From the NCBI GenBank assembly GCA_965216495.1, contig OZ244163.1:96127-160126 (forward strand): a DNA stretch of 64,000 bases. Reading direction: 5' to 3'. The notes beneath the pieces were generated by a model. It ran no database searches. It was not told the origin of the DNA and was given only the letters and a program-made list of their open reading frames with translations. Positions 14,035 through 27,254 of the stretch are shown here, piece by piece (position 1 is the stretch's first letter; each line of letters starts with the position of its first letter). Made by a program: the position numbers and the translations under genes. The stretch comes from Acidimicrobiia bacterium (GTDB taxonomy: Bacteria; Actinomycetota; Acidimicrobiia; Spongiisociales; ZC4RG35).

Positions 14035-14097
14035 AGGGGGTTCGCGGGTCGTCAAAGTATAAGACCGGTCGGCTCCCTGTGGAAAGTTGAGCGGGAT

Positions 14098-14200
14098 ATA
14101 GGGGACGCCCGAACGCGGAAGCGTTCGTGCCGTCCCCGGATTGTTGTAGTGGATTAGGGGACGCCCGAACCCGGAACAAGTTCTCGCTGTTCCTTCTAGA
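14098..14200. repeat. two direct copies of TAGGGGACGCCCGAAC(g/c)CGGAA, each forming a GC-rich hairpin
   Basis: Copy 1 is a nested perfect inverted repeat GGGGACG-CC-CGAACGC-GGAA-GCGTTCG-TGC-CGTCCCC. Copy 2 is GGAACA-N9-TGTTCC. Both lie between tRNA-Trp and the upstream minus-strand gene. Confidence 0.5.
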
Positions 14201-14417
14201 TCCTCCCTGTCTGATCGTGATCAGCGTGCAGGTGTCCGAGATCTCGTCACCATTCCATATTTAACTGAACCGTGGTGTTGCGTGAGCTGAGCCCAGTGAC
14301 GAGCAGTTAGCTCGTATCTGAAGGAGGAATTGGTCACCCTCAATCGGACAGTGACGACTGGAGCGAACGAACTCGGTGCGGCTCACCTAGACGGGTGCTG
14401 CAATCTTTGGATGTTCG

Positions 14418-14918
14418 TTATGGAAGGGGTGCTTCGAGTTCAAGATCGAGCATTAGGTCTACCCAGCCCACTAGGCGAGATTTCCACTCTTCGTATTCGA
14501 CAACGGGATTTCCGTCGTACATGAAGTCGCCGACGTCCTCGCGGACCTCATCAGAGAACATCATTGCACCGCGGGTCAAGAAATCGCCAGCGTCGCAATC
14601 TGGCGTCAGGCCGGTCTCTCTCATGTGCAGGTTCGCGAGCTGGCTAACAAGGGTTTCAACATCATATAGGCGGGAGCTCCAGGACTGACCCCGAACTGTC
14701 TCAGGGCTGCCGATGACAGTGAGTACCCTCTCATTCATCTCTGTCCCCCACTCCAAGGCAACTTCCTGACACGTCGTTCCGGTGAATTCAGGCCGGTCGC
14801 TGTCGCAGGCGCCGATCGACCGGGGTAGGCCGTCGCAAGAGTCGGGACGAAGCGCTAACAAGCCAACAACGACGGCACCCACCGCCAAAAAGCTGGCAAC
14901 GATCAGAATCCGTTTCAA
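14418..14918 (-). CDS. secreted/membrane-anchored hypothetical protein
   Basis: N-terminal signal/TM (MKRILIVASFLAVGAVVVGLLAL) and several Cys. No family recognised. Confidence 0.5.
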   Translation of the reverse strand: MKRILIVASFLAVGAVVVGLLALRPDSCDGLPRSIGACDSDRPEFTGTTCQEVALEWGTEMNERVLTVIGSPETVRGQSWSSRLYDVETLVSQLANLHMRETGLTPDCDAGDFLTRGAMMFSDEVREDVGDFMYDGNPVVEYEEWKSRLVGWVDLMLDLELEAPLP

Positions 14919-14990
14919 GCCTTCAACCTTTCGAACAATCCAACCGCCTTGGGTCGGAGGAGCTGCCTCCGACCCAGGACGAACGTAGTC

Positions 14991-15600
14991 TCAACAGTCG
15001 GTTGAGATATAGGTAGCTCCACTAGTCGCGATCGTATAGGGCGCGCTGTAGTCCGACGTAGCCGTATTGGTCTCAATCTTGACTGTGGCCTTGTATCCGG
15101 CGTTGTTCGTGACGTTGAATACGGCCGAGGGGATTAATCGGCTGACCAGAACACTGGCTCCAACGTCGTATCGAGACTCGTATTTGCCCCACGTCTCAAC
15201 GGTTTTGGTTGACGGCGCATTCCATCGAAGTCGGACCTGCATCTCGAATTGGAAGTTCCCATCCGCTTTGCAGTGAGTCCTCGAAGTCGTGCCAGCTGGC
15301 AGAACTATCCAGCCCGTATCATCGCTCCACCAGCAGAGAACGCAGTCTTTCTTGCTGCGCCATTTGTATTCCAGGACACACGATGACAATCCGACCGGAC
15401 AGTCGTTCAAGATCGAGCCCGAGTCGAAGGTGACGCGTGCTGTGGATCCGTTATCTGTCACATGACCAGCCATGTTGTTGTCTCCTCCCACGACCTGCCC
15501 ATCGGCGGCCTGCGCAGGTAGCGTGTTAGCGATGAATAGCGCAGCCAGCGCTATTCCAACGACCAGCATTCTGCGTCCATTCACAAGTGCAAGGCTCATC
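14991..15600 (-). CDS. secreted Cys/Trp-rich hypothetical protein
   Basis: Start taken at MSLALVNGRRMLVVGIALAALFIANTLPAQA (signal peptide); the mature part is Cys/Trp-rich. The ORF-track N-extension was judged unlikely. Confidence 0.5.
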
Positions 15601-15795
15601 TTGTCTTCTCCTTTAGATCGTGCCTTGATGCGTTGGTGAGCTTGCGGGAGGGCTACGCAGGCGTCTATCCCCAGTTGCGGGTAAATCTGTAGCCAGATTG
15701 AGTGATTTGCGTACCCAAAACCGGGCAAGTGTCTTCTTCCAACGCTGCTGATGGTATGGCTAGGGTGGTGTCGACTGAATTCTTAGGGGGTCGAC

Positions 15796-16251
15796 GTGGT
15801 GGACATCGTGGACATCGTGCGCGTCAGTCTGGTCGTAGCAAACACGAGCCTGTTCGGGTACCTGATACTCACTGGACTCAGAGAGCGGTCGGCTAACCGA
15901 GGTCCCGGAGTTCGGTTGATGCGCAGAGCGGCGTTGGCAGCCTACGGTGCCGTCTTTGTCGGGGGACTGCAGCGCATAATCCTCCAAGGTGTCCCATTGG
16001 GACTTGTAAACGACGACGCTCTAGACCCAATACTCGAGACCTATGCTTACGTTCAGGCGGCGGTGGTGCTGAGCCTGGGGGTCGTCTGCTGGCGCTCGTT
16101 AACAATGGCTACGCACCGATTGAGGGCTTCAGACGACCTGCTTGCAGCTTTTGGGGGTGCGCTTCCGGATGTCGACTGGTCCGGAGTGCATTTGACGCCA
16201 CGAGAGCGAGAGGTCGCGGACGTTTGGGAAACGACAGCGCTACCTGAATGA
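15796..16251 (+). CDS. hypothetical protein (possibly the frameshifted 5' part of a longer gene)
   Basis: 151-aa Val-rich ORF with an internal tandem 9-mer (gtggacatc x2). It ends 1 nt out of frame with a downstream HTH-coding frame. Confidence 0.3.
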   Translation: MVDIVDIVRVSLVVANTSLFGYLILTGLRERSANRGPGVRLMRRAALAAYGAVFVGGLQRIILQGVPLGLVNDDALDPILETYAYVQAAVVLSLGVVCWRSLTMATHRLRASDDLLAAFGGALPDVDWSGVHLTPREREVADVWETTALPE

Positions 16252-16405
16252 AATTCTCCCAATTCTCACGGATATCAAACTCGAAGCTATCGCCCAAGCA
16301 ACCGGCCTCTCCCTCGGCTACTGCTCATTCATCCGGCGTGGCATCAAGACACCACATCCGAGACACTGGCAAGCTCTAGCAGCACTCGTCCAACGAGTCG
16401 GCTAG
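16196..16405 (+). other. startless XRE-family helix-turn-helix coding frame (cryptic small regulator or frameshifted C-terminus of the upstream ORF)
   Basis: Frame +1 relative to 15796..16251 translates to ...KLEAIAQATGLSLGYCSFIRRGIKTPHPRHWQALAALVQRVG*. This matches the XRE pattern L-x3-A-x3-G-x-S-x4-S-x-I-(E/R)-R-G-x3-P-x7-LA. No in-frame ATG/GTG/TTG lies between the upstream stop (16193) and the TAG at 16403. Confidence 0.4.
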
Positions 16406-16407
16406 CG

Positions 16408-16423
16408 CATATTGCCGGTTATG
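16408..16423. repeat. palindromic motif copy G (CATATTGCCGGTTATG)
   Basis: Inverted-repeat motif CATA(A/T)-N6-TTATG, 3 bp after the XRE-frame stop. Confidence 0.5.
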
Positions 16424-16498
16424 GGTTGGTGGGGGTGGATGGACAGGCCCTCTCAAAGCTGTTTCGTGACTTGAGTTCAGGGTTGATCACCCATGCGG

Positions 16499-16945
16499 TT
16501 ACGGGTTGCGAGCCCATGGCCGTTCTTCCACGACGAACCAGAGGCCTGCTACGGAAAAACCCAGGGGAAAGAGGAGTAGGAGTGATCCAAGAATGATTGA
16601 CCCGATGCCTGCGGTAGTGACGTTGGTGGGGTCAGCCGGGTCGTAGCGGACGTCTAGTACATCACCTTCGGCATCGAACGCCGACGTGGCAATCCAGGTC
16701 TCCACTTGTTGTCCGTCTGAAGTCGTGAAGGCCACGGTTGCCTCGAAGCCGGTCTGGGAACTCCCGGAAGCATCCGAGAGGAGAGTGCCTGAAGTTGTCT
16801 CCCCGCTTGTAAGCAGGCGGATGTCGGTCCACGTTTCTGCGACGTTGTAGCCGAACCATGCGAGGACGAGGATCGTTAACGCGACTGCGCCGATCCAAGT
16901 CCACCATCTCTTTAGATCTAGTTTCCGTCCCAAGCCAGGCTGCAT
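16499..16945 (-). CDS. DUF3592-like membrane protein
   Basis: N-terminal TM, beta-rich middle (GTLLSD...VRYDPADP) and C-terminal TM. The start was taken at the internal MQPGLGRK. Confidence 0.55.
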   Translation of the reverse strand: MQPGLGRKLDLKRWWTWIGAVALTILVLAWFGYNVAETWTDIRLLTSGETTSGTLLSDASGSSQTGFEATVAFTTSDGQQVETWIATSAFDAEGDVLDVRYDPADPTNVTTAGIGSIILGSLLLLFPLGFSVAGLWFVVEERPWARNP

Positions 16946-17052
16946 TCTCGCATTACGGACCCAACCAACGCGGGGCTGCTGCTCAAACACAAGGAGCAAA
17001 TAGCGGCAGATATGAGCGGCTTTGCGCACGGATCAGGCTGGTTGGTGGCTGT

Positions 17053-17448
17053 TCACGCCAGACCTGCGAGACCCCAAATCAAGAGACCAAGCCCTAGTGC
17101 CACAAGCAAAGGAACGACTAGCAGCAACGGTGAGCTCATGAGTCCACGCCCGTAGTCGACGGATGTTCCCCACCACGCTGGGCCTTGGAAGTACGAGATA
17201 TCAATCGAGTCCCCAGCTTCATGGCTGCTGTAAAGGTGCTGCCAGACTTCTACCACATGCTCGGATCCATCAGGTAGTTCAACAGTCAACAAGAAGGACT
17301 CCCCTCCTTCTCTTCCACCTAGGTCATGACGCTTTGCTTTGACCTCAGCAGCCGCTCGGCGAAACAGAGCCAGCCGGTAAACCAAAGCAAGCACAGACGG
17401 AACCAAAACAATGATCCCTAACACAACGGCGGTTGTGGGCTGCACCAC
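17053..17448 (-). CDS. DUF3592-like membrane protein (tandem paralog)
   Basis: Same TM-beta-TM architecture (ESFLLTVELPDGSEHVVEV...), 131 aa. Confidence 0.55.
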   Translation of the reverse strand: MVQPTTAVVLGIIVLVPSVLALVYRLALFRRAAAEVKAKRHDLGGREGGESFLLTVELPDGSEHVVEVWQHLYSSHEAGDSIDISYFQGPAWWGTSVDYGRGLMSSPLLLVVPLLVALGLGLLIWGLAGLA

Positions 17449-17492
17449 AGCTCAACCTATCGTCCGATCACACTTGGAGTCGGATTGGCCTA

Positions 17493-17508
17493 CATAACGG
17501 CACATGTG
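17493..17508. repeat. palindromic motif copy A (CATAACGGCACATGTG)
   Basis: 45 bp upstream of the minus-strand DUF3592 gene start (17448). Confidence 0.5.
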
Positions 17509-17622
17509 CGCCTTCAGGCACAACGCCGAGTTCCATCAGCGGACGTTGTTCCTTCGGATCGGGGCATCGGAACCTAGCGCGCAGACGCAGCCGAGGTACT
17601 GGTGTCCATGCACCTAGCTGCA

Positions 17623-17638
17623 CATAACGGCACATATG
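17623..17638. repeat. palindromic motif copy B (CATAACGGCACATATG)
   Basis: 27 bp upstream of the ATG at 17666. Confidence 0.55.
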
Positions 17639-17665
17639 TCGTGGTTGGCTGGGTAGCTTCGACGC

Positions 17666-18148
17666 ATGCCAGACGAATTCTTCTTCCTTACATTTGGTGG
17701 TCTTGGTGTTTCCCTGGCTGGGTTCGCTGGACTGATTCATGCCCTGGACCGCAGCGATAGCGCAGACAACCCTGAGACCAAGTGGCGTATCCGCAACATT
17801 GTCATGGGTGGGTTCACCGTGGCTCTGGCCGGGCTGCTCACGTGGCCGGTGTACGGGTTCACTCAGGATGTGGATACGACTGTGCGGATCGTCTCGGCCT
17901 ACTTCGTCTTAGGACTAATCCGTCAGTTCGCTGTGGATGCGAGGCCGGGACCGGCCTGGCCCAACGACACCCGCCGCAAGGTCTTCCTAGGCATCGGAGT
18001 TGCGCTTGGGGTCGTGGCCGTAATCAACGTATTTGCTGCATCAGTAGCCTTACTGGAACTGCTGTTCTTCTTGGCAATCGGGGGCCCGATCGGCACCTTC
18101 ATCAGAGCGATCGGCGATCTCCACGACCCGGCGGAGGCGAGCGCATAA
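17666..18148 (+). CDS. small polytopic membrane protein (hypothetical)
   Basis: 160 aa with 4-5 predicted TM helices. The stop TAA is embedded in motif copy C. Confidence 0.55.
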   Translation: MPDEFFFLTFGGLGVSLAGFAGLIHALDRSDSADNPETKWRIRNIVMGGFTVALAGLLTWPVYGFTQDVDTTVRIVSAYFVLGLIRQFAVDARPGPAWPNDTRRKVFLGIGVALGVVAVINVFAASVALLELLFFLAIGGPIGTFIRAIGDLHDPAEASA

Positions 18149-18159
18149 CGGCACATATG
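18144..18159. repeat. palindromic motif copy C (CATAACGGCACATATG)
   Basis: Contains the stop codon of the 17666..18148 ORF; 22 bp upstream of the EamA gene. Confidence 0.55.
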
Positions 18160-18181
18160 AGCGTGGCGTAGGGTCCTTGCG

Positions 18182-19066
18182 ATGGATGGGAGGCTGGACC
18201 GCGCCGGTCTGAGGTTGTTTCTTGCCTATTCGGTGCTGGCTGGTGGGAACGCAGTGGGGGTCCGGTTTTCTAATCGCGAGTTGGACCCTTTTTGGGGTGC
18301 GACTTTCCGGTTCGGGACTGCTGCGGTCTTGATGCTTGTTTTGATGGCAGTGCTGGGTCATCGGATTCCGCGAGGTCGAGCTCTGGCCGGTGCAGCGTTG
18401 TATGGCCTGTTGGCTTTTGGGGGTGCGTTCGCTTTCGCGTTCTACGCCTTGGTCGAACTCGAAGCTGGTTTCGGCCAGATCCTGCTCTCGGTCGTGCCGC
18501 TGGTCACCCTTCTGCTTGCATCAGCTCAGAAACTCGAACGGCTGAAAGGGTCTGCTGTTGCGGGCGCACTCATCTCGCTTGCAGGAGTCGTCGTGATGTC
18601 AGGCCTGGGCTTTCAAGGTTCGCTTCCGCTCCCGTCGATCCTTGCCGGAATCGGTTCAGCCGTTTGCTTTGCTCAAGCGTCTCTTACGATCAAACGTTTC
18701 CCCGAATCTCATCCCATCGTCGTCAACGCAGTCGGCATGGCCGCCGGTGCCGTGTTCCTCGGCCTTGTGACCTTGGTTGCCGGCGATGACATCGCCCTGC
18801 CACAACAATCCGACACTTGGTGGGCGATCGTATACATGGTGCTAATCGGCTCGATCGCGGTCTTCAGTATTTACGTGGCACTCCTTGAACGCTGGGAAGC
18901 CTCAAGAGCCAACTACGGGTTCGTGATCATCCCCATCGTCACCGTCTTGGTGTCGGCCTGGCTACTCGACGAGCCGATCAGCATTGGACTGGCCTTTGGA
19001 GGAGCATTAGTACTAGCGGGCGTGTACCTCGGAGCGCTTCGACGACCAGCCACAACCCGCCCATAA
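18182..19066 (+). CDS. EamA/DMT-superfamily transporter
   Basis: Ten-TM architecture with two EamA-like repeats; 294 aa. Confidence 0.75.
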   Translation: MDGRLDRAGLRLFLAYSVLAGGNAVGVRFSNRELDPFWGATFRFGTAAVLMLVLMAVLGHRIPRGRALAGAALYGLLAFGGAFAFAFYALVELEAGFGQILLSVVPLVTLLLASAQKLERLKGSAVAGALISLAGVVVMSGLGFQGSLPLPSILAGIGSAVCFAQASLTIKRFPESHPIVVNAVGMAAGAVFLGLVTLVAGDDIALPQQSDTWWAIVYMVLIGSIAVFSIYVALLERWEASRANYGFVIIPIVTVLVSAWLLDEPISIGLAFGGALVLAGVYLGALRRPATTRP

Positions 19067-19077
19067 CGGCACTTATG
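19062..19077. repeat. palindromic motif copy D (CATAACGGCACTTATG; perfect CATAA/TTATG arms)
   Basis: Contains the EamA stop codon; upstream of the MFS gene. Confidence 0.55.
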
Positions 19078-20413: not shown

Positions 20414-20446
20414 GTCGCACCGCCTCCTTTCCAGGAAGAACCAACG

Positions 20447-20467: not shown

Positions 20468-22231
20468 TCAGGCGGTGGTCGGGCTGAGAATCGCCAATGC
20501 GAGGATGGTCCAGCCAACAACGGTTCCCATCAAGGCGACTTCCAGTAGTCGTTCGTCGATCCCCGAAAGGACAGCTCCCATCGGTAGTGAGGCGACGAAG
20601 AGCCAGGCGAGCAGTCGAGGAGCGAAGCTGTATCTCGGAAGGAGTTGATTCCGGAGCACCTGGCCGCCTATCAGGAAGAGAGTGACGACTATCGACAGCA
20701 TGGTTGCTAGGGCAGCGGGACCAAACAGACCGTCGTCCCCGTCGATGATGTAAGCCACACCGGCGACAGCACCTCCCACCGCCGCAACCCACGCAAGAAT
20801 CGTGACCAGCCGAGGAAACCTGTCGATCCGGTCTCTGATACCGTAGACCAGCAGCAGAATCGAAACTCCGAAGAACACCAGAGCAAGTTCAAACCAATAG
20901 TCGGGCTGATCGCCAGTAGCCAGAATGGCGATGCTCTTGTAAGACCACATCACCGCCCCGACCACGGCGAGCAGACCGCTCCATCGCAGCACACCACCAA
21001 CCGTGCCCTGCCACCTCATCATCAGCTCCCTGCACACGCACATAACGGCACATATCGCTCGGGCTAAATGCGATCGGGACCAAGCAAAAAGCCGCTCGCC
21101 AGTTGAGATGACCTCAAAAGAATGAAGGGCATCTGCCGGGTAAGCCAGTGGCACCCAAGAGGCCCGATCCTCGTCCCAAATCGCCAGACCAGAGCAATGC
21201 TGTGCCAGAGGTTGCCTGCCATAGGTGTGAGCTGTTGGCGAACACTCGTAGAACCGCAGCGGAACATCGGGATATGGGTTCCACCGGTTGGATTCGGGGT
21301 CATATCGCGACGCACCCATCTGGTAGTCAACAGCGATCACATCGCCTCCCAGAGCCACGCCCGATGTAGCCAGCGACGTCAAGCCGCTCGACGGCATCAG
21401 TGTCCACTCATCGATGCTGACGTCATATGCGCCCTCTCCTGTGACCACCACCAGGTGCTCATCGGCCCATACCGCTGTAGCTCTGTCATGCAGGCTGGGC
21501 GGCTCGGCAATTGGGGTGGGGTCTCCATTAAGGGGGTCAACCAAGAGCCCCTTCTCTGCGTCAATCACCTCGGAGCCGGTCCAATCCGACAAAGGGTAGA
21601 ACCCTCCGTCGAGCGGCCAATCGTCAATCACTCGCCAAGTGTTCGTTGCCGGATCCCAAGCCGCGGCGTCAGGGGCTCGGGTCCAAATGATCAGCTCCTC
21701 GCCCGTCCAGACGGACCCGTATTTACTGCTCAGGCGCACCGGGCTGTCCGTCAGCTCGCGCCACCTTCCCGTTTCCGGGTTGTAGGCGGCACCTCCACCC
21801 ACCGGAGCGCCTCCACCAAGGCGCTCGCCACCCCAGTAGACCAACTCCTGTCCGGTCCAAGCCTTGACGCCCACCCACCGAGCCGACAGCGGGCCGGGGT
21901 CCAACTGAGTCCAGTCCTCAGAAACGAGGAACTCATCTGGAACGGGCCTTCGCTGTGCAACATCGTCGATCGGGAACGGCAGTGAACGCGTGACATCCGA
22001 CGGAAGAGGCGAGACGTCGATCAAGTACTGCAAATGGTCGATCCCGTCTGCCGACTCGATCGGCGCCGTAGCCGTGCTCTCCGGTGCCGTCGGCGCGCCC
22101 GGATCCTGACCGTCGGTCAGGGCAAAGAGAACCACAAGAATCAGAGCCAGCGCTGCCACGGCCGCTGCGACCCGAGGGCCTCTCATCGAAGACCTGTTAA
22201 CCGCGTGGGCCAGGCGTTCACCGACGTGCAA
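20468..22231 (-). CDS. secreted Kelch-repeat beta-propeller protein fused (or run together) with a C-terminal 6-TM membrane domain
   Basis: N-terminal signal (MRGPRVAAAVAALALILVVLFAL) and repeated ...W..GG...YDP.TN.W... Kelch-like blades. The C-terminal ~185 aa, from MMRWQGTV at ~21023, are polytopic membrane. Motif copy F lies in frame at the junction. These may be two genes: 21060..22231 and 20468..21023. Confidence 0.5.
   Translation of the reverse strand: MHVGERLAHAVNRSSMRGPRVAAAVAALALILVVLFALTDGQDPGAPTAPESTATAPIESADGIDHLQYLIDVSPLPSDVTRSLPFPIDDVAQRRPVPDEFLVSEDWTQLDPGPLSARWVGVKAWTGQELVYWGGERLGGGAPVGGGAAYNPETGRWRELTDSPVRLSSKYGSVWTGEELIIWTRAPDAAAWDPATNTWRVIDDWPLDGGFYPLSDWTGSEVIDAEKGLLVDPLNGDPTPIAEPPSLHDRATAVWADEHLVVVTGEGAYDVSIDEWTLMPSSGLTSLATSGVALGGDVIAVDYQMGASRYDPESNRWNPYPDVPLRFYECSPTAHTYGRQPLAQHCSGLAIWDEDRASWVPLAYPADALHSFEVISTGERLFAWSRSHLARAICAVMCVCRELMMRWQGTVGGVLRWSGLLAVVGAVMWSYKSIAILATGDQPDYWFELALVFFGVSILLLVYGIRDRIDRFPRLVTILAWVAAVGGAVAGVAYIIDGDDGLFGPAALATMLSIVVTLFLIGGQVLRNQLLPRYSFAPRLLAWLFVASLPMGAVLSGIDERLLEVALMGTVVGWTILALAILSPTTA
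21041..21056. repeat. palindromic motif copy F (CATAACGGCACATATC)
   Basis: 18 bp upstream (minus strand) of the ATGATG that begins the membrane domain. It is in frame inside the 587-aa ORF. Confidence 0.5.
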
Positions 22232-22481
22232 CTCCTCAAAGGACCTTTCCCTCCACGGTCTCCGTTCTTCCTAACTGCCCCAGGGTGAGGGGGCTGAAAA
22301 AGCAGTACGTCGATTAAGACGTTGAAAAGGCTTACAGGGTTCACAGCGATCCAAACGAAGGCGAGGCAAGACTTATGAATCTTGTTTGGTCGGGCCTGGA
22401 TCGGGGGACATAATGCAAGCCATGAACCAATTTGGGGGTCACTGATCATTTGGGGAATGAAGTCCGGCTCCTCGACTGGAC

Positions 22482-22850
22482 TTGAATATCCGGGGTCATA
22501 GCTTTGCCGTCTGCGCAGCCATGGTCGCGCTGCTGGCCGCGTGCAGCAGTACCTCGATCTGCTCTGGCGAGGTAGGCCCCGAAACGGTCCATGTCGACGC
22601 CTCAGCGTGGGTCGACGAGGAAACCACCATTGTCGTCTGCCTCATGGAGCAGGCGACAGGGGCGGAATACTGTGGACAGGAAGGGTCGCCCACGGTGTCG
22701 GTCGTAGCCTCCAATGACTATCAGGTTGAATGGAACTACTACGTCACTTTCCGACAAGGGAACACCCACGTGGTTCCGTCGGCTGCTGGCGGGACGCACT
22801 CGATGAAATGCGAAGCCACGACCACGAACATCGTGCTGACCCGGGGCTAG
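22482..22850 (+). CDS. putative lipoprotein (hypothetical)
   Basis: TTG start. Signal plus lipobox MNIRGHSFAVCAAMVALLAAC-SS. 122 aa. Confidence 0.45.
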   Translation: MNIRGHSFAVCAAMVALLAACSSTSICSGEVGPETVHVDASAWVDEETTIVVCLMEQATGAEYCGQEGSPTVSVVASNDYQVEWNYYVTFRQGNTHVVPSAAGGTHSMKCEATTTNIVLTRG

Positions 22851-22932
22851 ACCACGGCTGCCTAGCGAGAACCTTCGACGCAGCGGTCGCGACCGACCGC
22901 CTCGAAGACCTCGACCTACTGGTTCACACCGC

Positions 22933-23499
22933 TCAGTGGGGAGCGACTACCTCGGCAGGCTGATGGGTGCTCGCGGGCTCGGGAATGAGTTCCAACAGCT
23001 GAGAATTGAGCAGGTAGAACTGGTGTGTGGTCAGCGAACCTTGCCCGTGACGACGGTTGATGTCCTTGAGCATCCGCAACCACCGACGGAAAGCTAGGGA
23101 AGGATCAACGCCCTCGGCATTGAGGCCCTCCTCCACTTCTTTGACCTTGGACTTCAGCTCTTCGAACCGCTCTTCTTCGATAGCTGAGCGGTTGAGTGTT
23201 GAACCGGTTGCCGCCGCCACACCGTTGGATGCAGGAGAGGCGGCAGGTTGGGCGTCGGCGACACCGAGTTCGAGAGCGAAGCGGGACGCGTCATCCACTT
23301 TGAGAATCATCTCCTCACCGTCCACCTTGATGTAGAACTCGCCGTCCTCAGCGCGGGCGACCAATTCTTCGAGCGGCCACTCGGCAATGGTGCGTTCTCC
23401 CGACATGAGGCACAGCCCTTCATCGGAAATGTCGACGACGACGCCAACAGGAAGGCGGGTCTGGCCGGGGATGCGAAGCCTGGCATCAAATGAGGACAT
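22933..23499 (-). CDS. hypothetical cytoplasmic protein (weak PilZ-like RxxxR...DxSxxG N-terminus, coiled-coil C-terminus)
   Basis: Start taken at MSSFDARLRIPGQTRLPVGVVVDISDEGLCL. No confident family assignment. Confidence 0.45.
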   Translation of the reverse strand: MSSFDARLRIPGQTRLPVGVVVDISDEGLCLMSGERTIAEWPLEELVARAEDGEFYIKVDGEEMILKVDDASRFALELGVADAQPAASPASNGVAAATGSTLNRSAIEEERFEELKSKVKEVEEGLNAEGVDPSLAFRRWLRMLKDINRRHGQGSLTTHQFYLLNSQLLELIPEPASTHQPAEVVAPH

Positions 23500-23585
23500 G
23501 TCTCTCTCCTTCACGCCTCTCAGCCAGCATCTAGGTAATCGACAGGGAGACCCCTTGGGATACCGCCATCCAGAGGATCCTTTCA

Positions 23586-23870
23586 ATGCGGTATTGTTCG
23601 GCCGTGCACAAGATCGATATCACCTACTGCGTTCCTTGAAACTATCTCCCCCGCGCCGTGAGCGCGGCCAACGGAATCCTCGCCGACTATCAACACGTCG
23701 TTGAGTCTCTGACCTTCACCACCGGCTCCAAAGGAGTGTTCGACGTAGTGGTCGATGGCGAGCTCCTCTACTCCAAGCACGAGACAGGTCGTCACGCCGA
23801 CGAAGGCGAAGTGGCCCAGCTTTTCGCGGAGAAGTATGGGGAAGGCGTCACCAAGTACGGCGACGGCTAG
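23586..23870 (+). CDS. SelW-like (Rdx family) selenoprotein with in-frame TGA = Sec
   Basis: ATG at 23586 has a GAGGA RBS 9 nt upstream. It reads MRYCSAVHKIDITYCVP-U(TGA 23637-39)-NYLPRAVSAANGILADYQHVVESLTFTTGSKGVFDVVVDGELLYSKHETGRHADEGEV... The CxxU redox motif and the G..G.F(D/E)V.V.G.L..SK motif match the SelW/Rdx fold. The ORF track reported only the 70-aa part after the TGA. Confidence 0.6.
23651..23667 (+). promoter_or_regulatory. putative bacterial SECIS hairpin
   Basis: CCGCGC-CGUGA-GCGCGG is a perfect 6-bp stem with a 5-nt loop containing GU. It begins 12 nt 3' of the UGA, the usual bSECIS spacing. Confidence 0.4.
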
Positions 23871-24033
23871 CAGCCAGGGTCCTCCTTAAACACTCTTCAC
23901 AAACAAGGAGGGCCGATCGACTTCGAGCCGACCAAAAAGCCCTCTCAGCGACCACAGTACGCGCACCCCCATTACAGTGCGTGGCGGAGGGGCAGAAACA
24001 AAATCAAGGAGAGAGAACTTGAGGAAAGTATGG

Positions 24034-24849
24034 ATGACCGCCATTGCGGTCTTCACGATCATGGCGATGGCCATCCCAGTCGGAGCTATCACCAAGGGCG
24101 GAGCGCCCGACAATGGTGAGCACCCGTACGTGGGCCTTATGGTCGCCAAGGACGCCGATGGCAACCCGCTTTGGCGTTGTTCGGGATCGATGATCTCGCC
24201 GACGGTGTACGTAACCGCAGGTCACTGCGTTTCACAGCCGGCAGCGACGGCAACGATCTGGTTCGAGGAGGACGTGCAGTCGCTCGGCTTCGATATCGCA
24301 GATCCCAACATGTACCCGAACGGCGGACCGACCACGGTCACCGGAACGGCACATCCACATCCCAACTATGACGACAACGCCTTCTTCCTATACGACATGG
24401 GAGTGGTCGTCCTGGACGAGCCGGTCTATCTGTCGTCATATGCAACTCTCGCTAGCGAGGGTGCCTTGGACGATTTGGGCAATGGTCGCAACGACGCTGT
24501 TGTCGAAGCAGTCGGCTACGGCTTGCAGAATGCCAACAAGAACCACACCGTCGCTAACCGCGTTCGGATGAAGGCTGACCTCATGGTCGTCGACACCATC
24601 GGTGTTGCCGGTCTCGGGAGACTCGCCAAGTTCTTTGAGGGCAGCGGCTCCTTCATGGTCAGCGGCGACGCAGCCCACGGTGGAACCTGCTTCGGCGACT
24701 CGGGAGGACCGATGCTCATCGGTGACACCGATGTCCTCGTCGGGGTCAACTCCTTCGGACTCAACGGCAACTGCGCCGGAGTCGGAGGCGCCTACCGAAT
24801 CGACCAGGCAGACGACCTTGCGTTCATCAACTCGTTCCTGGGTTCCTAA
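24034..24849 (+). CDS. secreted trypsin-like serine protease (S1 family)
   Basis: Signal peptide, TAGHC (His) and GDSGGP (Ser) catalytic motifs, and AGGAGAGAGAA RBS before the ATG at 24034. Confidence 0.8.
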   Translation: MTAIAVFTIMAMAIPVGAITKGGAPDNGEHPYVGLMVAKDADGNPLWRCSGSMISPTVYVTAGHCVSQPAATATIWFEEDVQSLGFDIADPNMYPNGGPTTVTGTAHPHPNYDDNAFFLYDMGVVVLDEPVYLSSYATLASEGALDDLGNGRNDAVVEAVGYGLQNANKNHTVANRVRMKADLMVVDTIGVAGLGRLAKFFEGSGSFMVSGDAAHGGTCFGDSGGPMLIGDTDVLVGVNSFGLNGNCAGVGGAYRIDQADDLAFINSFLGS

Positions 24850-24865
24850 CCCAGCCTGAACTCGA

Positions 24866-24901
24866 CAGAAGGGGCGCCCTTTGGGCGCCTCTTCTTTTTT
24901 T
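24866..24901 (+). terminator. rho-independent terminator of the S1 protease gene
   Basis: GAAGGGGCGCCC-TTT-GGGCGCCTCTTC followed by TTTTTTT. Confidence 0.65.
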
Positions 24902-24953
24902 GATCCAAACCTGGCGTCGCTCCGAAGTCCCAATACACAGCGACAAAGGAGAG

Positions 24954-25469
24954 ATGCTGATGAGGAAACTGCTCGTGTCAATGGTGGCTGTCGCAATGAC
25001 CGCGACCATGGCCCTACCAGCCCTTGCAGGCAAGCCTGCTGCCGCCGAGGCGGCCAAACCCGGCAACCAGACGATCGTGGAGATCGCTTCGGGCAACTCG
25101 AACTTCGAGGTGTTGGTGACTGCGGTGGTACGCGCCGACTTGGTCGACCTGCTCAATGGGAAAGGCCAGTTCACCGTCTTTGCCCCGACTGATGCTGCAT
25201 TCGAGGCGACCTTCGGAGCCGACGAAGAAACCATCAAGGGACTGATCAACGCCGGCGCTCTCGACGGTGCATTGGGAGACATCCTTGGGTACCACGTCAC
25301 AGAGGGTCGACGGATCTCAACCTCGGTTCTGGCAGCGTCAAGCTACGAAATGCTGAACGGTGACACGCTCACCAAGGCCGAACTAGTGGCGGCTGGAGTG
25401 GTTCCTGCCGACATCTCGGCTAGCAACGGAATCATCCACGTGCTCACGGCCGGAGTACTTCTGCCCTAA
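24954..25469 (+). CDS. secreted fasciclin (FAS1) domain protein
   Basis: Signal peptide plus FAS1 signatures (TVFAPTDAAF, GYHVTEGR, NGIIHVL). AAGGAGAG RBS. Confidence 0.75.
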   Translation: MLMRKLLVSMVAVAMTATMALPALAGKPAAAEAAKPGNQTIVEIASGNSNFEVLVTAVVRADLVDLLNGKGQFTVFAPTDAAFEATFGADEETIKGLINAGALDGALGDILGYHVTEGRRISTSVLAASSYEMLNGDTLTKAELVAAGVVPADISASNGIIHVLTAGVLLP

Positions 25470-25521
25470 CGAACAACCACTCACTGTTCGGGTCCTGGTC
25501 GTCGACTAGGGCCCGAACTCT

Positions 25522-25851
25522 CTAGGAGGTCCGTGGTCTGGCCCGCCACACCACGAGGGCGATCGCCATTGAGACACCCGCCGCGACGTAGGTGATTGGC
25601 TTCTTCCAAGAACGGCTGATCGCCAGGTCTCCTTCGAGCGAAGACATGACCTTCCATTCGAGATCTCTGGGGGCCTCGAAGTGGCCCTCTTTCATGACTG
25701 CCATCTCTTTGGCAGCCCGGCTCATAGCGGCGTAGCGGGCCTGACACTTCAAACAAGTGGCCGAATGACCCCCAAGCACGCCACCTACCGCTGACCCTTC
25801 CACCGCAGCCGTCGCTACGAACGGCACTGCCACTTCGCAAACAACGCTCAC
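25522..25851 (-). CDS. membrane-anchored ZAS-family anti-sigma factor
   Basis: C5...H29SATC33LKC36 zinc-anti-sigma motif (HxxxCxxC) and a C-terminal TM helix. Translationally coupled (ATGA overlap) to the upstream ECF sigma gene. Confidence 0.6.
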   Translation of the reverse strand: MSVVCEVAVPFVATAAVEGSAVGGVLGGHSATCLKCQARYAAMSRAAKEMAVMKEGHFEAPRDLEWKVMSSLEGDLAISRSWKKPITYVAAGVSMAIALVVWRARPRTS

Positions 25852-26426
25852 GCTGACGCCTCGAGATCTCTGGCCAAGCGGGCACGGGCACGATGGAGCC
25901 TCACCTTTGCCGCCGTGACCGATATCCCAGTCACCTCTGCGATCTCTGCGTGTGACCAGCCGTAGACGTCCTTCATGACGACAACCTGCCGCTGAGCCTC
26001 GGGTAGCCGATCCAATGCCGACCGAAGGCGGCCCCGAAGTTCCATGATTTCACCGGCGAACTCGGGACTCGTCGTGTCCTCTGGAGCGGGCAACTCAAAG
26101 TGGTCATCAATTGGGACCGCACTATGTCGCTTGGCCCGCTGTTTATGGGTCCACGCCGTATTGACCGTTATCCGATAAAGCCACGTCGACAACTTCGCAT
26201 CTCCCCGGAACTTGGGTAGGGCCTTCCAGGCGCGTATCAGGGACTCCTGTGCGATATCTGCCGCTAGATGCGGATCTCTGACCAATCGTCGAGCCAACGT
26301 ATAGACCTCGTCCTGATGCTCCCGGACCAGTGCTGCGAAAGCGGCACGGTCACCCTGTTGGGCCCTCTCAATGAGGCGGGCCTCTCTGTCAGGTTCGACC
26401 CGCTTCTTGTCGCCTGGGTTACTCAT
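25848..26426 (-). CDS. ECF-type RNA polymerase sigma factor
   Basis: Sigma-70 region 2 (YTLARRLVRDPHLAADIAQESLIRAW) and region 4 (VVVMKDVYGWSHAEIAEVTGISVTAAKVRLHRAR). The start was taken at MSNPGDKK. Confidence 0.8.
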   Translation of the reverse strand: MSNPGDKKRVEPDREARLIERAQQGDRAAFAALVREHQDEVYTLARRLVRDPHLAADIAQESLIRAWKALPKFRGDAKLSTWLYRITVNTAWTHKQRAKRHSAVPIDDHFELPAPEDTTSPEFAGEIMELRGRLRSALDRLPEAQRQVVVMKDVYGWSHAEIAEVTGISVTAAKVRLHRARARLARDLEASA

Positions 26427-27219
26427 CGGCAAGCTCGACTCTGGCCGTGAGACACTCGACCTCACCAGCTGCCAGCGTGACGGTCACCTGACCTTCTGAT
26501 TGCGCCTGCACCACGTCAACCGGAACGGCTGGCAGCAGAGGCGCTCGAAATCGTATCTTGGCACTAGTCAGCGGAGCGTCTCCAGGGCGCCTTTCAGCGG
26601 CCAACCTGAGAGCCCAACTCGCCTGAAGTAGCCCGTGGGCCACCACCCCCGGAAGCCCTGCTTCGACGGCGGCGGTGTGATCCCAGTGGATTGGGTTCCA
26701 GTCACGAGTCGCCGCCGCGTAACGGACCAGGTCTGCCCTCGAAGCAGACAGTTGGCCTGTCGCAGGGTCACCATCATCAGTCGCCGGCGGTTCTTCCCTC
26801 TCAGCGTCAGATTTGGTTGCGGTCTCGGCACCAGCGGCGAGGAACCCGGCGGAGCCAGAAGCGACCAACCGCCCCTCGCAATGCACCTCCATCTCGAATG
26901 TGATGAAGTAGACGCCTCCTCGCTCACGGGCACGTGTTACTTCGCCCGACACGGCCAGCTCCGAACCAACGAGCAACGGTTCAGTCCACTGAAACGATTG
27001 GTCGCCATGGATCACCGAATGCTCGTAGAGCAGTCCCAACAGTTCTGGCGCAACAGCAAACAACGCCACCGAAAGGAACCCCGGAGGCGCTGCGTTCACC
27101 CATCGACCGCGATCATCGCCAGTCGCCACCAAAAAATCCCTGACACCATCTGGGGATACGTAAAGAGGCTCCGGGCCAAAGGTTCGACCGGCCAGGTCGG
27201 ACAGATCCATCGAGTCCAC
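26419..27219 (-). CDS. MaoC-like (R)-specific hydratase/dehydratase, fused double-hotdog (HadA/HadB-like)
   Basis: Two hotdog-fold halves in 266 aa. The position next to rpmG mirrors the mycobacterial rpmG2-hadABC-secE arrangement. Confidence 0.6.
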   Translation of the reverse strand: MDSMDLSDLAGRTFGPEPLYVSPDGVRDFLVATGDDRGRWVNAAPPGFLSVALFAVAPELLGLLYEHSVIHGDQSFQWTEPLLVGSELAVSGEVTRARERGGVYFITFEMEVHCEGRLVASGSAGFLAAGAETATKSDAEREEPPATDDGDPATGQLSASRADLVRYAAATRDWNPIHWDHTAAVEAGLPGVVAHGLLQASWALRLAAERRPGDAPLTSAKIRFRAPLLPAVPVDVVQAQSEGQVTVTLAAGEVECLTARVELADE

Positions 27220-27254
27220 GGTAATCGGTAAACCCGAGGCAATACACTGACTGG

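What the first reader, a model, noticed from the sequence alone, without database searches (positions are those of the whole stretch)
14035..27250. ~13-kb lineage-specific block inserted into the conserved rpmG-(hadAB)-tRNA-Trp-secE junction
In most actinobacteria rpmG, the MaoC-like hadAB genes, tRNA-Trp and secE-nusG are adjacent. Here tuf-rpmG-MaoC lie at 26.4-29.2 kb and tRNA-Trp-secE at 13.6-14.0 kb. About 13 kb of secreted, membrane and regulatory genes of no recognisable housekeeping role separates them. These are the Cys-rich secreted proteins, DUF3592 pair, motif-flanked transporters, Kelch protein, selenoprotein, S1 protease, fasciclin and ECF sigma/anti-sigma. No integrase, transposase or flanking tRNA-fragment direct repeat is visible, so it is not a classical mobile island. 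It is most likely an accessory/niche-adaptation region that grew at a tRNA-proximal hotspot.
Basis: partly seen in the sequence, partly recalled or inferred. Interest (0 to 1): 0.5.

Follow-up and report, generated by a model that had tools for sequence, protein, structure and literature searches.

The report
Variable gene slot holding swappable cassettes
Between two highly conserved housekeeping gene clusters of an uncultured Acidimicrobiia bacterium lies an 11.4-kb accessory stretch, and its middle third is a row of single-gene modules bounded by a 28-bp dif-like site and shared almost identically with a clearly different genome, which points to a cassette-exchange system not yet described in Actinobacteria.

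Summary
The ECF sigma/anti-sigma pair (25522-26465) and MaoC belong to the conserved backbone in every Acidimicrobiia relative examined. The variable slot is about 14095-25521 (11.4 kb). PNPOx (27255-27770) is a separate small insertion.

In 47 relatives with both anchors visible, the slot is 750 nt or less in 36 and 1.1-4.7 kb in 11. Ten more exceed 5.7-9.7 kb. Cargo is unrelated between lineages, for example a lasso-peptide-like cluster or Cas1. The block has no integrase, no tRNA-fragment repeat, native codon usage, and lies on the promoter side of tRNA-Trp.

New finding: 16402-21062 is an array of eight 28-bp sites (GCCGCACATAA-CGGCAC-TTATGCGCGGC, 11-6-11) that bound single-gene modules. 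The site occurs in more than 120 metagenome contigs. It is intergenic, co-oriented locally (95 adjacent pairs versus 10), and marks homology breakpoints.

A contig whose backbone is only 72-76% identical carries window 16404-19650 at 99.85% identity in the same slot. A third contig carries 16405-17499 at 97.9% elsewhere. Both segments start exactly at a site edge.

The most likely mechanism is site-specific recombination by a Xer-like recombinase encoded elsewhere. This is inferred, not shown.

The parts
13957..14034 (-). tRNA-Trp (CCA). Conserved left anchor of the slot, followed by secE and nusG.
   Evidence: ARAGORN and Rfam tRNA, 63.8 bits. Present next to secE in 74 or more relatives.
14056..14085 (-). 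Promoter-like site of tRNA-Trp (TTTCCA-18-TATACT). Conservation with relatives ends just beyond it.
   Evidence: Promoter scan. Sequence comparison with L037 and L212.
14095..25521 (.). The variable accessory slot as corrected here (11.4 kb). It has three segments: A 14095-16401, B 16402-21062 (the site array), and C 21063-25521.
   Evidence: None of its proteins occurs in the equivalent place in 80 relatives, apart from a 30% Kelch-like match. Slot length varies from under 0.75 kb to over 9.6 kb.
14418..14918 (-). Segment A: secreted 166-aa protein with 4 Cys, no Pfam family, singleton in the protein collection.
14991..15599 (-). Segment A: secreted Cys-rich 202-aa protein (start at MSLALV), no Pfam family, singleton.
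15796..16251 (+). Segment A: 151-aa membrane protein, no Pfam family.
16402..16430 (-). Site 8: a diverged, inverted dif-like site (GCGCATAT-TGCCGG-TTATGGG). It is the left breakpoint of the segments shared with L212 and L214.
   Evidence: It has the highest PWM score outside the array in the whole window. Homology with L212 and L214 starts exactly at its outer edge.
16499..17029 (-). Module: DUF3592-like membrane protein (probable start at 16945).
   Evidence: Pfam 24.8 bits, just under the cut-off. The exact protein occurs on 3 contigs.
16993..17020 (+). Site 1 (degenerate copy).
   Evidence: PWM 16.3; pattern search.
17053..17448 (-). Module: 131-aa two-TM protein (weak DUF7489 hit). Only marginally similar to the DUF3592-like neighbour.
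17487..17514 (+). Site 2. In L214 an IS110-family element sits inside its spacer.
17515..17616 (.). Empty module: about 100 nt between sites 2 and 3 with no ORF.
17617..17644 (+). Site 3 (perfect core).
17666..18148 (+). Module: 160-aa membrane protein. The unit site-gene-site is conserved in other contigs that have unrelated flanks.
   Evidence: Homologues at 78-87% identity. Contexts. Alignment A4.
18138..18165 (+). Site 4 (perfect core); overlaps the stop codon of the 160-aa gene.
18182..19066 (+). Module: EamA/DMT transporter.
   Evidence: Pfam 1.4e-31. 100% aa identity in L212.
19056..19083 (+). Site 5.
19148..20413 (+). Module: MFS transporter. Intact here, truncated and frameshifted in L212, and 97.9% identical in L215 from another sample.
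20441..20468 (+). Site 6, between the convergent MFS and membrane-protein genes. In L215 a 135-nt IS110-derived mini-element sits in the equivalent spacer.
20468..21022 (-). Module: 184-aa multi-TM protein with its own ATG (21022) and a GGGAG ribosome-binding site. It is read through in frame from the Kelch-like ORF upstream.
   Evidence: Kelch homologues never cover this part.
21035..21062 (+). Site 7, the last site of the array. It lies inside the long ORF 20468-22231, at the point where Kelch homology stops.
21080..22231 (-). Segment C: Kelch-like beta-propeller gene, 3'-truncated. Homologues are 730-895 aa, and P0124 (892 aa) continues about 137 aa further. Homology ends about 8 codons before site 7.
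22482..22850 (+). Segment C: 122-aa lipoprotein-like protein, no Pfam family.
22933..23586 (-). Segment C: hypothetical protein (probable start 23499, 188 aa), no Pfam family.
23586..23870 (+). Segment C: SelW/Rdx-like selenoprotein, MRYCSAVHKIDITYCVP-U-NYLPRA, with TGA at 23637-23639 followed by the hairpin CGCGC-cgtga-GCGCG.
   Evidence: Pfam Rdx 6.5e-8 on the part after the TGA. Translation and sequence.
23977..24849 (+). Segment C: secreted trypsin-like S1 protease, followed by a strong terminator-like hairpin at 24867-24895.
24900..25469 (+). Segment C: fasciclin-domain protein.
25522..26465 (-). Backbone, not part of the insertion: ECF sigma (25848-26465) and a small anti-sigma with HxxxCxxC and one TM (25522-25851).
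   Evidence: Conserved after MaoC in relatives at 50-75% and 54-61% identity, and in the nearest relatives.
26419..27219 (-). Backbone: fused double-hotdog MaoC-like dehydratase.
   Evidence: Pfam PF13452 + PF01575. Conserved position.
27255..27770 (+). Second, separate lineage-specific insertion: a PNPOx-like protein between MaoC and rpmG.
   Evidence: Pfam. Absent from all relatives at this place. No dif-like site flanks it.
27856..29213 (-). Backbone right anchor: rpmG (27856-28017) and tuf (28023-29213).
16404..19650 (.). Segment 99.85% identical (4 mismatches and 1 gap in 3248 nt) to L212:8739-11986. The housekeeping flanks of L212 are only 72-76% identical to the window.

Best explanation
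The interval between the conserved operon tuf-rpmG-MaoC-ECF sigma-anti-sigma and the conserved operon tRNA-Trp-secE-nusG is a permissive, hypervariable slot in this Acidimicrobiia family. In this genome it holds an 11.4-kb mosaic of envelope, secreted and transport genes made of at least three pieces.

The middle piece (16402-21062) is an array of single-gene modules. Each module is bounded by a 28-bp site with the layout of a dif/Xer site: two 11-bp inverted arms that end in ...CATAA / TTATG..., around an invariant asymmetric 6-bp spacer, CGGCAC. Modules, or runs of modules, are exchanged between co-occurring genomes and between loci, and the breakpoints fall at these sites.

Shown: the variable slot, the sites and their properties, breakpoints at sites, and near-identical module runs in diverged genomes.

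Inferred:
- The sites are substrates of a tyrosine (Xer-like) recombinase encoded outside the window.
- Co-oriented sites allow excision of modules as circles and their re-insertion at a resident site.
- A resident site about 130-170 nt upstream of tRNA-Trp serves as the landing pad for this slot.

Segments A and C carry no sites and their route of entry is unknown. Segment A (14095-16401) is absent from the one relative that shares the array. It is therefore either a later insertion in this lineage or was never part of the transferred run.
For: Variable slot.
- The order htpX-tRNAs-tuf-rpmG-MaoC-ECF-(anti-sigma)-tRNA-Trp-secE-nusG is conserved in relatives.
- The anchor-to-secE gap is 750 nt or less in 36 loci and 1.1-4.7 kb in 11 loci. 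In 10 further loci the right anchor is not reached within 5.7-9.7 kb.
- Slot ORFs are mostly singletons between relatives, with mixed functions including Cas1.
- The nearest relatives carry a PqqD/transglutaminase/ABC/small-peptide cluster there instead.

The sites.
- There are 7 copies in the window against 0.18 expected, all on the + strand and all within 16999-21056. A PWM scan finds no others, apart from one diverged inverted copy at 16402.
- The pattern hits more than 120 metagenome contigs.
- 227 copies give an 11-6-11 consensus.
- 80% of copies are intergenic although about 83% of the DNA is coding, and there is no preferred gene orientation.
- Adjacent copies are co-oriented 95 times against 10, with a median spacing of 699 nt and no link to GC skew.
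- Arm pairing is not maintained: only 37% Watson-Crick at the variable arm position and 34% A-A at the innermost pair.

Breakpoints and mobility.
- 8 of 87 internal homology ends between site-bearing contigs fall at a site in both partners, against about 0.15 expected. The joints are clean.
- The 160-aa membrane-protein module is conserved as site-gene-site with unrelated flanks in L209, L210 and L211, and with decayed sites in L208.
- L212 has NusG 89%, RplA 73% and SecE 68% identical, and 72-76% nucleotide identity in its flanks. It carries window 16404-19650 at 99.85% identity, starting 130 nt from its own tRNA-Trp.
- L214 carries window 16405-17499 at 97.9% identity in another locus.
- L215, from another sample, carries the MFS module at 97.9% identity, ending in the spacer of site 6.
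- Array proteins have copies at 90% identity or more on other contigs. The anti-sigma and both segment-A secreted proteins are singletons, and MaoC's best non-self hit is 71%.
- L037 has a near-consensus site 166 nt upstream of its tRNA-Trp, in the same orientation as site 8.
Against: - No recombinase gene is present in the 64-kb window. Only 3 of 121 site-bearing loci carry a tyrosine-recombinase ORF.
- Most homology ends are not at sites.
- The right end of the L212 segment lies inside the MFS gene. One L214 end lies 34 nt beyond site 2.
- Block composition and codon usage are native, so composition gives no independent support for foreign origin.
- The nearest backbone relatives are distant (MaoC 71% or less), so the age of segments A and C cannot be judged.
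- L212 and L214 are low-coverage metagenome contigs (3-4x, going by their names) from a single sample. Assembly chimerism is unlikely because the junctions share only about 25 bp, but it cannot be excluded.
- IS110-family elements also target REP sequences (own knowledge), so their insertion into these sites does not separate the recombination-site reading from the REP-like reading.
Confidence: 0.68

Rival explanations
1. The block is an old, vertically inherited lineage-specific region, that is, an ancient rearrangement or gradual gene gain. The 28-bp motif is simply a REP-like selfish palindrome that has accumulated in its intergenic gaps.
For: Block GC3, codon usage and most tetranucleotide content are native. 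No integrase or transposase is present. The motif is palindromic, intergenic and multi-copy. IS110-family elements insert into it, as they do into REPs (own knowledge).
Against: A 3.25-kb run is 99.85% identical in a genome whose flanks are 72-76% identical. Modules recur with unrelated flanks and breakpoints at site edges. All 8 copies occupy 8 consecutive gaps, and none occupies the other roughly 50 gaps of the window. Copies are co-oriented locally, 95 versus 10. Arm pairing is poorly maintained.
Confidence: 0.15
2. The motif is an operator for a dimeric transcription factor, and the array is a co-regulated set of membrane and transport genes. The block is an ordinary accessory region with no special mobility mechanism.
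For: Six of the seven + strand copies lie 18-90 nt upstream of a start codon on one side or the other. The arms are palindromic.
Against: All seven canonical copies in the window share one orientation although the genes lie on both strands, and one copy sits between two convergent 3' ends. In 227 copies all four gene configurations are about equally frequent, including 41 convergent cases. The asymmetric spacer is the most conserved part of the site. Homology breakpoints fall at the site. Cassette genes are functionally unrelated.
Confidence: 0.07
3. The block is a degraded classical genomic island that once integrated at tRNA-Trp by an integrase and has since lost it.
For: It lies next to a tRNA gene. 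The tRNA-proximal 14-19 kb is the most compositionally deviant part of the window (z about 2.4, GC 0.57 versus 0.59).
Against: It lies on the 5' promoter side of the tRNA. No tRNA-fragment direct repeat exceeds chance. No integrase remnant is present. Relatives carry quite different cargo in the same place, and no integrase family appears among the 25 most frequent Pfam families in their slot ORFs, which is a partial view.
Confidence: 0.05

Closest known systems
dif (pdif) modules of Acinetobacter Rep_3/OrfX plasmids
   Same: Both are small accessory modules, often one gene and sometimes empty. Both are bounded by 28-bp sites built as 11-bp arm, 6-bp spacer, 11-bp arm with ...ATAA / TTAT... 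next to the spacer. Modules are shuffled between replicons with crossovers centred on the sites. Specific IS families target the sites. (Definition from PMC13141974; IS targeting from PMC10132070.)
   Different: Here the arrays are chromosomal and in Acidimicrobiia. The arms are nearly symmetrical and both resemble the XerC-side arm. The sites are overwhelmingly co-oriented, whereas pdif sites alternate as C/D and D/C. Xer dependence is untested.
Integron cassette arrays
   Same: Both are arrays of co-oriented recombination sites separating mostly single, functionally miscellaneous genes. Cassettes are shared between arrays with homology that starts at the site. IS110/IS1111-type elements target the sites (own knowledge).
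   Different: The site here is 28 bp with conserved sequence, not a 57-141-bp structured attC. Genes lie on either strand at about equal frequency, so each needs its own promoter. No intI, attI or Pc lies nearby. Complete integrons were not found in Actinobacteria (PMC4889954).
Flexible genomic islands / regions of genome plasticity between conserved operons
   Same: Conserved flanks, lineage-specific cargo of envelope, secreted, defence and secondary-metabolite genes, and native composition.
   Different: Usually no defined short site is known. Here part of the cargo is organised by one.
IMEX elements (integrative mobile elements exploiting Xer, such as CTX-phi and TLC-phi at Vibrio dif)
   Same: Tandem elements separated by co-oriented dif-like sites, with the recombinase supplied by the host rather than by the element.
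   Different: IMEX elements integrate at the single chromosomal dif site at the terminus and are phages or islands of several kb. Here the modules are single genes at a non-terminus locus, and in many loci.

Membership tests
Classical tRNA-targeting integrative genomic island | Tyrosine or serine integrase gene at one end | tested here: not met
   No such Pfam domain in any block ORF. phmmer with two tyrosine recombinases finds nothing in the 64-kb window.
Classical tRNA-targeting integrative genomic island | Direct repeat of the tRNA 3' end at the far border, with the island on the 3' side of the tRNA | tested here: not met
   The best tRNA fragment match is 15 of 18 bases, at chance level. 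The block is upstream of the tRNA promoter.
Classical tRNA-targeting integrative genomic island | Composition unlike the host | tested here: not met
   GC3 is 0.665 in both block and non-block genes, and the codon-bias residual gives p = 0.52. Only 14-19 kb is mildly deviant.
Region of genome plasticity (flexible island) | Conserved flanking genes with different cargo in related genomes | tested here: met
Integron | intI integrase with adjacent attI and Pc | tested here: not met
   No tyrosine recombinase in the window.
Integron | attC sites of 57-141 bp, conserved in structure rather than in sequence | tested here: not met
   Conservation is confined to about 28 nt of sequence. Arm pairing is not maintained. 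No dedicated attC covariance model was run.
Integron | Co-oriented sites separating mostly single-gene cassettes | tested here: met
   95 co-oriented versus 10 opposed adjacent pairs, median spacing 699 nt. Window array.
Integron | Cassette genes co-oriented and promoterless | tested here: not met
   All four gene configurations around a site are about equally frequent. In the window three module genes are on the + strand and three on the - strand.
Acinetobacter-type dif modules | 28-bp site made of an 11-bp arm, a 6-bp spacer and an 11-bp arm | tested here: met
   Consensus from 227 copies. The layout matches the predicted Frankia dif, CACGCCGATAA-TGCACA-TTATGTCAAGT (PMC3025954).
Acinetobacter-type dif modules | Distinct XerC and XerD arms, with adjacent sites inversely oriented (alternating C and D modules) | tested here: not met
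   The arms are near-symmetric and the sites are co-oriented. Definition from PMC13141974.
Acinetobacter-type dif modules | Recombination catalysed by host XerC/XerD | not testable with these tools
   No recombinase is linked to the sites. This needs biochemistry or genetics.
REP/BIME elements | Short imperfect palindromes in intergenic regions | tested here: met
REP/BIME elements | Dispersed genome-wide, with an associated RAYT transposase | tested here: inconclusive
   Within 64 kb all copies sit in one 4.7-kb run. The rest of the genome and any RAYT gene could not be examined.

The most novel reading that the evidence does not exclude
Uncultured marine and sediment Acidimicrobiia possess a previously undescribed chromosomal gene-cassette system. 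It consists of single-gene modules bounded by co-oriented 28-bp Xer-type sites, which are captured at resident sites (one of them upstream of tRNA-Trp) and swapped between co-occurring species. The system is itself parasitised by an IS110-family element that inserts into the site spacer. Functionally it would be an integron analogue in a phylum where complete integrons have not been found.
Probability: 0.45. Interest if true: 0.8.

Novelty: new variant of a known kind. Interest (0 to 1): 0.62.

Why it matters
As a plain accessory block between conserved operons the finding would be routine. The array inside it is not routine.

It gives a concrete, sequence-defined handle, a 28-bp site, on how flexible genes are captured and exchanged in an abundant but uncultured actinobacterial class. 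Complete integrons have not been found in that phylum (PMC4889954).

The site can be searched for directly in genomes and metagenomes. It predicts excision circles and empty-site junctions that long reads can confirm. It also makes testable whether Xer-type recombination drives chromosomal gene-cassette traffic outside Acinetobacter plasmids.

It also corrects the picture of the junction. The ECF sigma/anti-sigma pair is an ancestral part of the rpmG-MaoC operon neighbourhood in Acidimicrobiia, not accessory cargo.

Tried and rejected
- **tRNA-Trp fragment repeats.** A scan of all 18-mers with up to 3 mismatches, plus blastn-short, found only chance-level hits.
- **Rfam on 13-30 kb.** Only the four tRNAs; no riboswitch or other RNA family for the motif.
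- **Composition.** A tetranucleotide sliding window shows only 14-19 kb mildly deviant. Per-gene GC3 and codon bias show no difference. Composition therefore cannot date or source the block.
- **Plasmid and phage collections.** Only weak MFS gene similarity in plasmids, and nothing in phages. One motif hit in viral contigs was not followed up.
- **Replichore-linked orientation of the motif (KOPS-like).** No relation to GC skew or to gene direction.
- **Hairpin or structural element.** Watson-Crick pairing of the arms is poorly kept.
- **Operator or promoter element.** Rejected on gene-orientation statistics.
- **Recombinase next to arrays.** A regex and Pfam search found tyrosine recombinases in only 3 of 121 loci, and none in the window.
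- **tRNA enrichment near arrays.** 7 tRNAs in 422 kb, which is not enriched.
- **Decayed sites around segments A and C and around PNPOx.** None apart from site 8.
- **Literature search for the motif sequence.** Only unrelated primers.
- **Look-up of the source contig through the exact MaoC protein.** Failed.

Full report
**What is in the window.**
ARAGORN finds tRNA-Trp at 13957-14034 (-) and tRNA-Met/Thr/Tyr at 29267-29552 (-). ORF listing and Pfam give the following map.

| Coordinates | Strand | Gene |
|---|---|---|
| to 13917 | - | rplL, rplJ, an alpha/beta hydrolase (+), rplA, rplK, nusG, secE |
| 13957-14034 | - | tRNA-Trp |
| 14418-14918 | - | secreted protein, 166 aa |
| 14991-15599 | - | Cys-rich secreted protein |
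| 15796-16251 | + | membrane protein, 151 aa |
| 16499-17029 | - | DUF3592-like protein |
| 17053-17448 | - | two-TM protein |
| 17666-18148 | + | membrane protein, 160 aa |
| 18182-19066 | + | EamA transporter |
| 19148-20413 | + | MFS transporter |
| 20468-22231 | - | long ORF: Kelch-like part plus C-terminal membrane part |
| 22482-22850 | + | lipoprotein-like protein |
| 22933-23586 | - | hypothetical protein |
| 23586-23870 | + | Rdx/SelW-like gene |
| 23977-24849 | + | S1 protease |
| 24900-25469 | + | fasciclin-domain protein |
| 25522-25851 | - | small anti-sigma with HxxxCxxC |
| 25848-26465 | - | ECF sigma |
| 26419-27219 | - | fused double-hotdog MaoC |
| 27255-27770 | + | PNPOx-like protein |
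| 27856-28017 | - | rpmG |
| 28023-29213 | - | tuf |

Two qualifications apply. The 'DUF3592 pair' is weak: 24.8 bits against a cut-off of 25.3 for one gene, none for the other, and the two are barely alike. The selenoprotein call is right, with the motif ITYCVP-U-NYLPRA and a hairpin after the TGA.

**Who it is and what relatives look like.**
NusG retrieves 80 loci from GTDB species representatives. Nearly all are labelled Acidimicrobiia MAGs, at 69-93% identity. Mapping the window's proteins onto them shows one ancestral order: htpX, tRNAs, tuf, rpmG, MaoC, ECF sigma, anti-sigma, tRNA-Trp, secE, nusG, rplK, rplA.

The ECF sigma (50-75% identity) and the anti-sigma (54-61% in the closer relatives) are therefore backbone, not cargo. 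This is also true in the nearest relatives found through MaoC (69-71% identity).

Among 47 loci with both anchors visible, the distance from the last anchor to secE is 750 nt or less in 36 and 1.1-4.7 kb in 11. In 10 further loci, 5.7-9.7 kb of upstream DNA does not reach MaoC. In the window the distance is 11.6 kb.

None of the window's slot proteins occurs in any relative's slot, except a 30% Kelch-like match in L023. Slot ORFs of the relatives are mostly singletons with respect to one another. Their Pfam content is a miscellany of glyoxalases, methyltransferases, cyclases, LeuA, Cas1 and others. The two nearest relatives carry a PqqD / transglutaminase-core / ABC / small-ORF cluster, which is lasso-peptide-like, plus a Trp halogenase.

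PNPOx is missing from all relatives, so it is a second small insertion between MaoC and rpmG.

The slot runs from about 14095, just beyond the conserved tRNA-Trp promoter, to 25521.

- No fragment of tRNA-Trp is repeated above chance.
- The block lies on the promoter side of the tRNA, which is the wrong side for 3'-end att sites.
- No integrase or transposase domain occurs in the block, and no tyrosine recombinase occurs in the whole window.
- Composition is essentially native. Mean GC3 is 0.665 for both block and non-block genes, and the length-corrected codon-bias residual is indistinguishable (p = 0.52).
- Only the tRNA-proximal 14-19 kb is the most deviant 4-kb stretch in tetranucleotide content (about 2.4 sd), with GC 0.57 versus 0.59.
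- There are no plasmid or phage matches beyond weak MFS similarity.

**The array.**
Repeat finding exposed a motif, GC[ACG]CATAACGGCAC[AT]TATG. It has seven copies in the window against 0.18 expected, all on the + strand, all between 16999 and 21056. No copy occurs elsewhere in the window by PWM scan. A further diverged, inverted copy lies at 16402-16430, and it is the top-scoring position outside the array.

The copies occupy every gap between consecutive units: the DUF3592-like gene, the two-TM gene, about 100 nt with no ORF, the 160-aa gene, EamA, MFS, and a 184-aa membrane gene. They do so whatever the gene's strand. One copy lies between two convergent 3' ends.

The last copy lies inside the long 'Kelch' ORF. 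Homologues of that protein (730-895 aa, 47-56% identity) match only residues 83-384. Homology stops about 8 codons before the site, and the 184-aa membrane part beyond it has its own ATG and GGGAG. The Kelch-like gene is therefore 3'-truncated at the edge of the array.

**The motif elsewhere.**
In the 121 loci examined (120 metagenomic plus one viral contig, 422 kb) there are 227 copies with 3 or fewer mismatches.

The consensus extends to 28 nt: (G/C)CCGCACATAA-CGGCAC-(A/T)TATG(C/G)GCGGC. This is two 11-nt inverted arms around an invariant asymmetric 6-nt spacer. It has the dimensions and inner-arm sequence of dif sites. The predicted Frankia dif is CACGCCGATAA-TGCACA-TTATGTCAAGT (PMC3025954). 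The likeness to the E. coli XerC arm GGTGCGCATAA is from memory.

Other properties of the copies:
- 80% are intergenic although about 83% of the DNA is coding.
- The four possible arrangements of neighbouring genes are equally common: 41 convergent, 33 divergent, and 34 and 39 tandem. This argues against a promoter, operator or terminator element.
- Adjacent copies are co-oriented 95 times against 10, with a median spacing of 699 nt. Orientation does not follow GC skew or gene direction.
- Pairing between the arms is not preserved: 37% Watson-Crick at the variable position and A-A at the innermost pair in a third of copies. This argues against selection for a hairpin.
- Genes between sites are a typical cassette-like miscellany: adenylate cyclases, SnoaL, GNAT, PadR, hydrolases, OsmC.

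**Sites as junctions.**
Among homologous segments shared by site-bearing contigs, 8 of 87 internal ends lie at a site in both partners, against about 0.15 expected. The alignments show identity of 80-98% starting within 2-3 nt of the site edge and none beyond it.

The 160-aa membrane-protein module is conserved as site-leader-gene-site. This holds in L209 (79% aa identity) and in L210 and L211 (78%), with unrelated neighbours. In L208 (87%) it sits in a different chromosomal neighbourhood with decayed sites.

**Direct evidence for recent exchange.**
The exact 160-aa protein also occurs on contig ctg302462 of ENA analysis ERZ25072999 (L212/L213). That contig has the same backbone order (pepN, rplL, rplJ, hydrolase, rplA, rplK, nusG, secE, tRNA-Trp) but is clearly another lineage. 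It is 72-76% identical at the nucleotide level, with NusG 89%, RplK 88%, RplA 73% and SecE 68%.

Yet L212:8739-11986 equals window 16404-19650 with 4 mismatches and one gap in 3248 nt. That run covers site 8, the DUF3592-like gene, site 1, the two-TM gene, site 2, the empty unit, site 3, the 160-aa gene, site 4, EamA, site 5 and the first 500 nt of MFS.

In L212 the run begins 130 nt upstream of tRNA-Trp, so the window's segment A (14095-16401) is absent there. The left joint is exactly at the outer edge of site 8. The right joint is inside MFS, whose remnant in L212 is frameshifted and truncated, so the window holds the intact version.

A third contig from the same sample (L214, 183 kb, in a different locus) carries window 16405-17499 at 97.9% identity, again starting at the edge of site 8. 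A contig from another sample (L215) carries the MFS module at 97.9% identity, ending in the spacer of site 6.

Cluster look-ups agree. Array proteins have copies at 90% identity or more on other contigs. The anti-sigma and the two segment-A secreted proteins are singletons, and MaoC has no relative above 71%.

Of 74 GTDB relatives, only L037 has a site upstream of tRNA-Trp. It is a near-perfect copy, 166 nt from the tRNA, in the same orientation as site 8.

**Interpretation.**
The slot is a permissive gap between two essential transcription units, and it has been filled independently in many lineages. In this genome it is a mosaic.

Its central third is an array of modules that move, singly or in runs, between loci and between co-occurring species, with joints at a 28-bp dif-like site. 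I infer site-specific recombination by a tyrosine recombinase encoded elsewhere. Co-oriented sites would permit excision as circles and re-insertion, and a resident site upstream of tRNA-Trp would act as landing pad in the window's lineage, L212 and L037.

None of this recombination chemistry is shown, and several points count against it:
- No recombinase is linked to the sites.
- Several breakpoints are not at sites.
- L212 and L214 are low-coverage metagenome contigs.

The main rival is a REP-like selfish palindrome in an otherwise ordinary accessory region. It is weakened by four observations: the confinement of all eight copies to eight consecutive gaps, local co-orientation, site-edge breakpoints, and near-identical module runs in diverged genomes. 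Segments A and C carry no sites and remain unexplained beyond being accessory.

**Comparison with known systems.**
The nearest analogue is the dif-module system of Acinetobacter plasmids. It shares the 28-bp 11-6-11 site, small and sometimes empty modules, crossovers at sites, and IS families that target the sites. Those sites, however, have distinct XerC and XerD arms and alternate in orientation (PMC13141974). Here the arms are near-symmetric and the sites co-oriented, on a chromosome, in another phylum.

Integrons share the co-oriented array and the cassette logic. They differ in site type, in gene orientation and in the need for intI. Complete integrons were not found in Actinobacteria (PMC4889954).

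The motif sequence does not occur in the searchable literature. I therefore rate the array a new variant of a known kind, and the block as a whole an ordinary member of the class of flexible regions.

Noticed in passing
L214:511-1943 (equivalent to window 17499, inside site 2); L215:4659-4793 and L215:2133-3164: An IS110-family element (352 aa, PF01548 + PF02371) is inserted, without target duplication, exactly in the 6-bp spacer of a dif-like site (CATAACG^GCAC). A 135-nt mini-element with the same termini (AAGCCTCTTTGTGTCAAG ... CATCATCAATCAG) sits at the same spacer position of another site, in a contig from a different sample. Next to that site there is also a second IS110-family gene.
   Followed up: partly
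window 23586-23870 (+): A SelW/Rdx-like selenoprotein gene with an in-frame TGA at 23637-23639 in a CVPU motif, followed 11 nt later by the hairpin CGCGC-cgtga-GCGCG, a possible bacterial SECIS. No selenocysteine machinery was looked for in the window.
   Followed up: partly
L081:11808-18300 and L083:2565-7900: In the two nearest relatives (MaoC 69-70% identity) the same slot holds a RiPP-like cluster: PqqD, a transglutaminase-core protein, an ABC transporter, several 36-45-aa ORFs and, in L081, a Trp halogenase. It is followed by extra sigma-factor pairs.
   Followed up: no
L001:1-9505: In this relative (NusG 91% identity) the slot contains Cas1 plus four large ORFs (188-1043 aa) with no Pfam family at all.
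   Followed up: no
window 20468-22231 (-): The long ORF is a chimera. A Kelch-like beta-propeller lacks the C-terminal roughly 137 aa of its homologues and runs in frame through a dif-like site into an unrelated 184-aa membrane protein. Full-length homologues (for example P0124, 892 aa) directly follow an ECF sigma gene in another locus, which suggests they are anti-sigma-type sensors.
   Followed up: partly
window 27255-27770 (+); L137:119-667; L208:13434-13844: The PNPOx-like gene between MaoC and rpmG is unique to this lineage. A PNPOx-family gene (28% identity to the window's) is flanked by two dif-like sites in L137, and a PNPOx_N gene lies in the accessory stretch of L208. The window copy has no site next to it.
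   Followed up: partly
window 14099-14176: Two copies of a 22-nt repeat (TAGGGGACGCCCGAAC[G/C]CGGAA, 56 nt apart) lie just beyond the tRNA-Trp promoter. One is part of a long GC-rich hairpin (GGGGACGGCACGAACGC-TTCC-GCGTTCGGGCGTCCCC). Their function is unknown.
   Followed up: no
window 10586-11389 (+) and the rplJ-rplA interval of relatives (for example L212:4596-6139, L023:11900-16700): The gap between rplA and rplJ is a second variable place. An alpha/beta hydrolase sits there in about half of the relatives (42-60% identity). L212 adds an ECF sigma plus a Germane/Gmad2 protein, and some relatives have several extra kb.
   Followed up: no
L019:4055-6734: In this relative a 664-aa ORF with no Pfam family lies between tRNA-Trp and secE, so the tRNA-secE link can also be broken.
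   Followed up: no
L205:5266-5284: One exact copy of the motif lies in an 8-kb IMG/VR 'viral' contig. It was not examined further.
   Followed up: no
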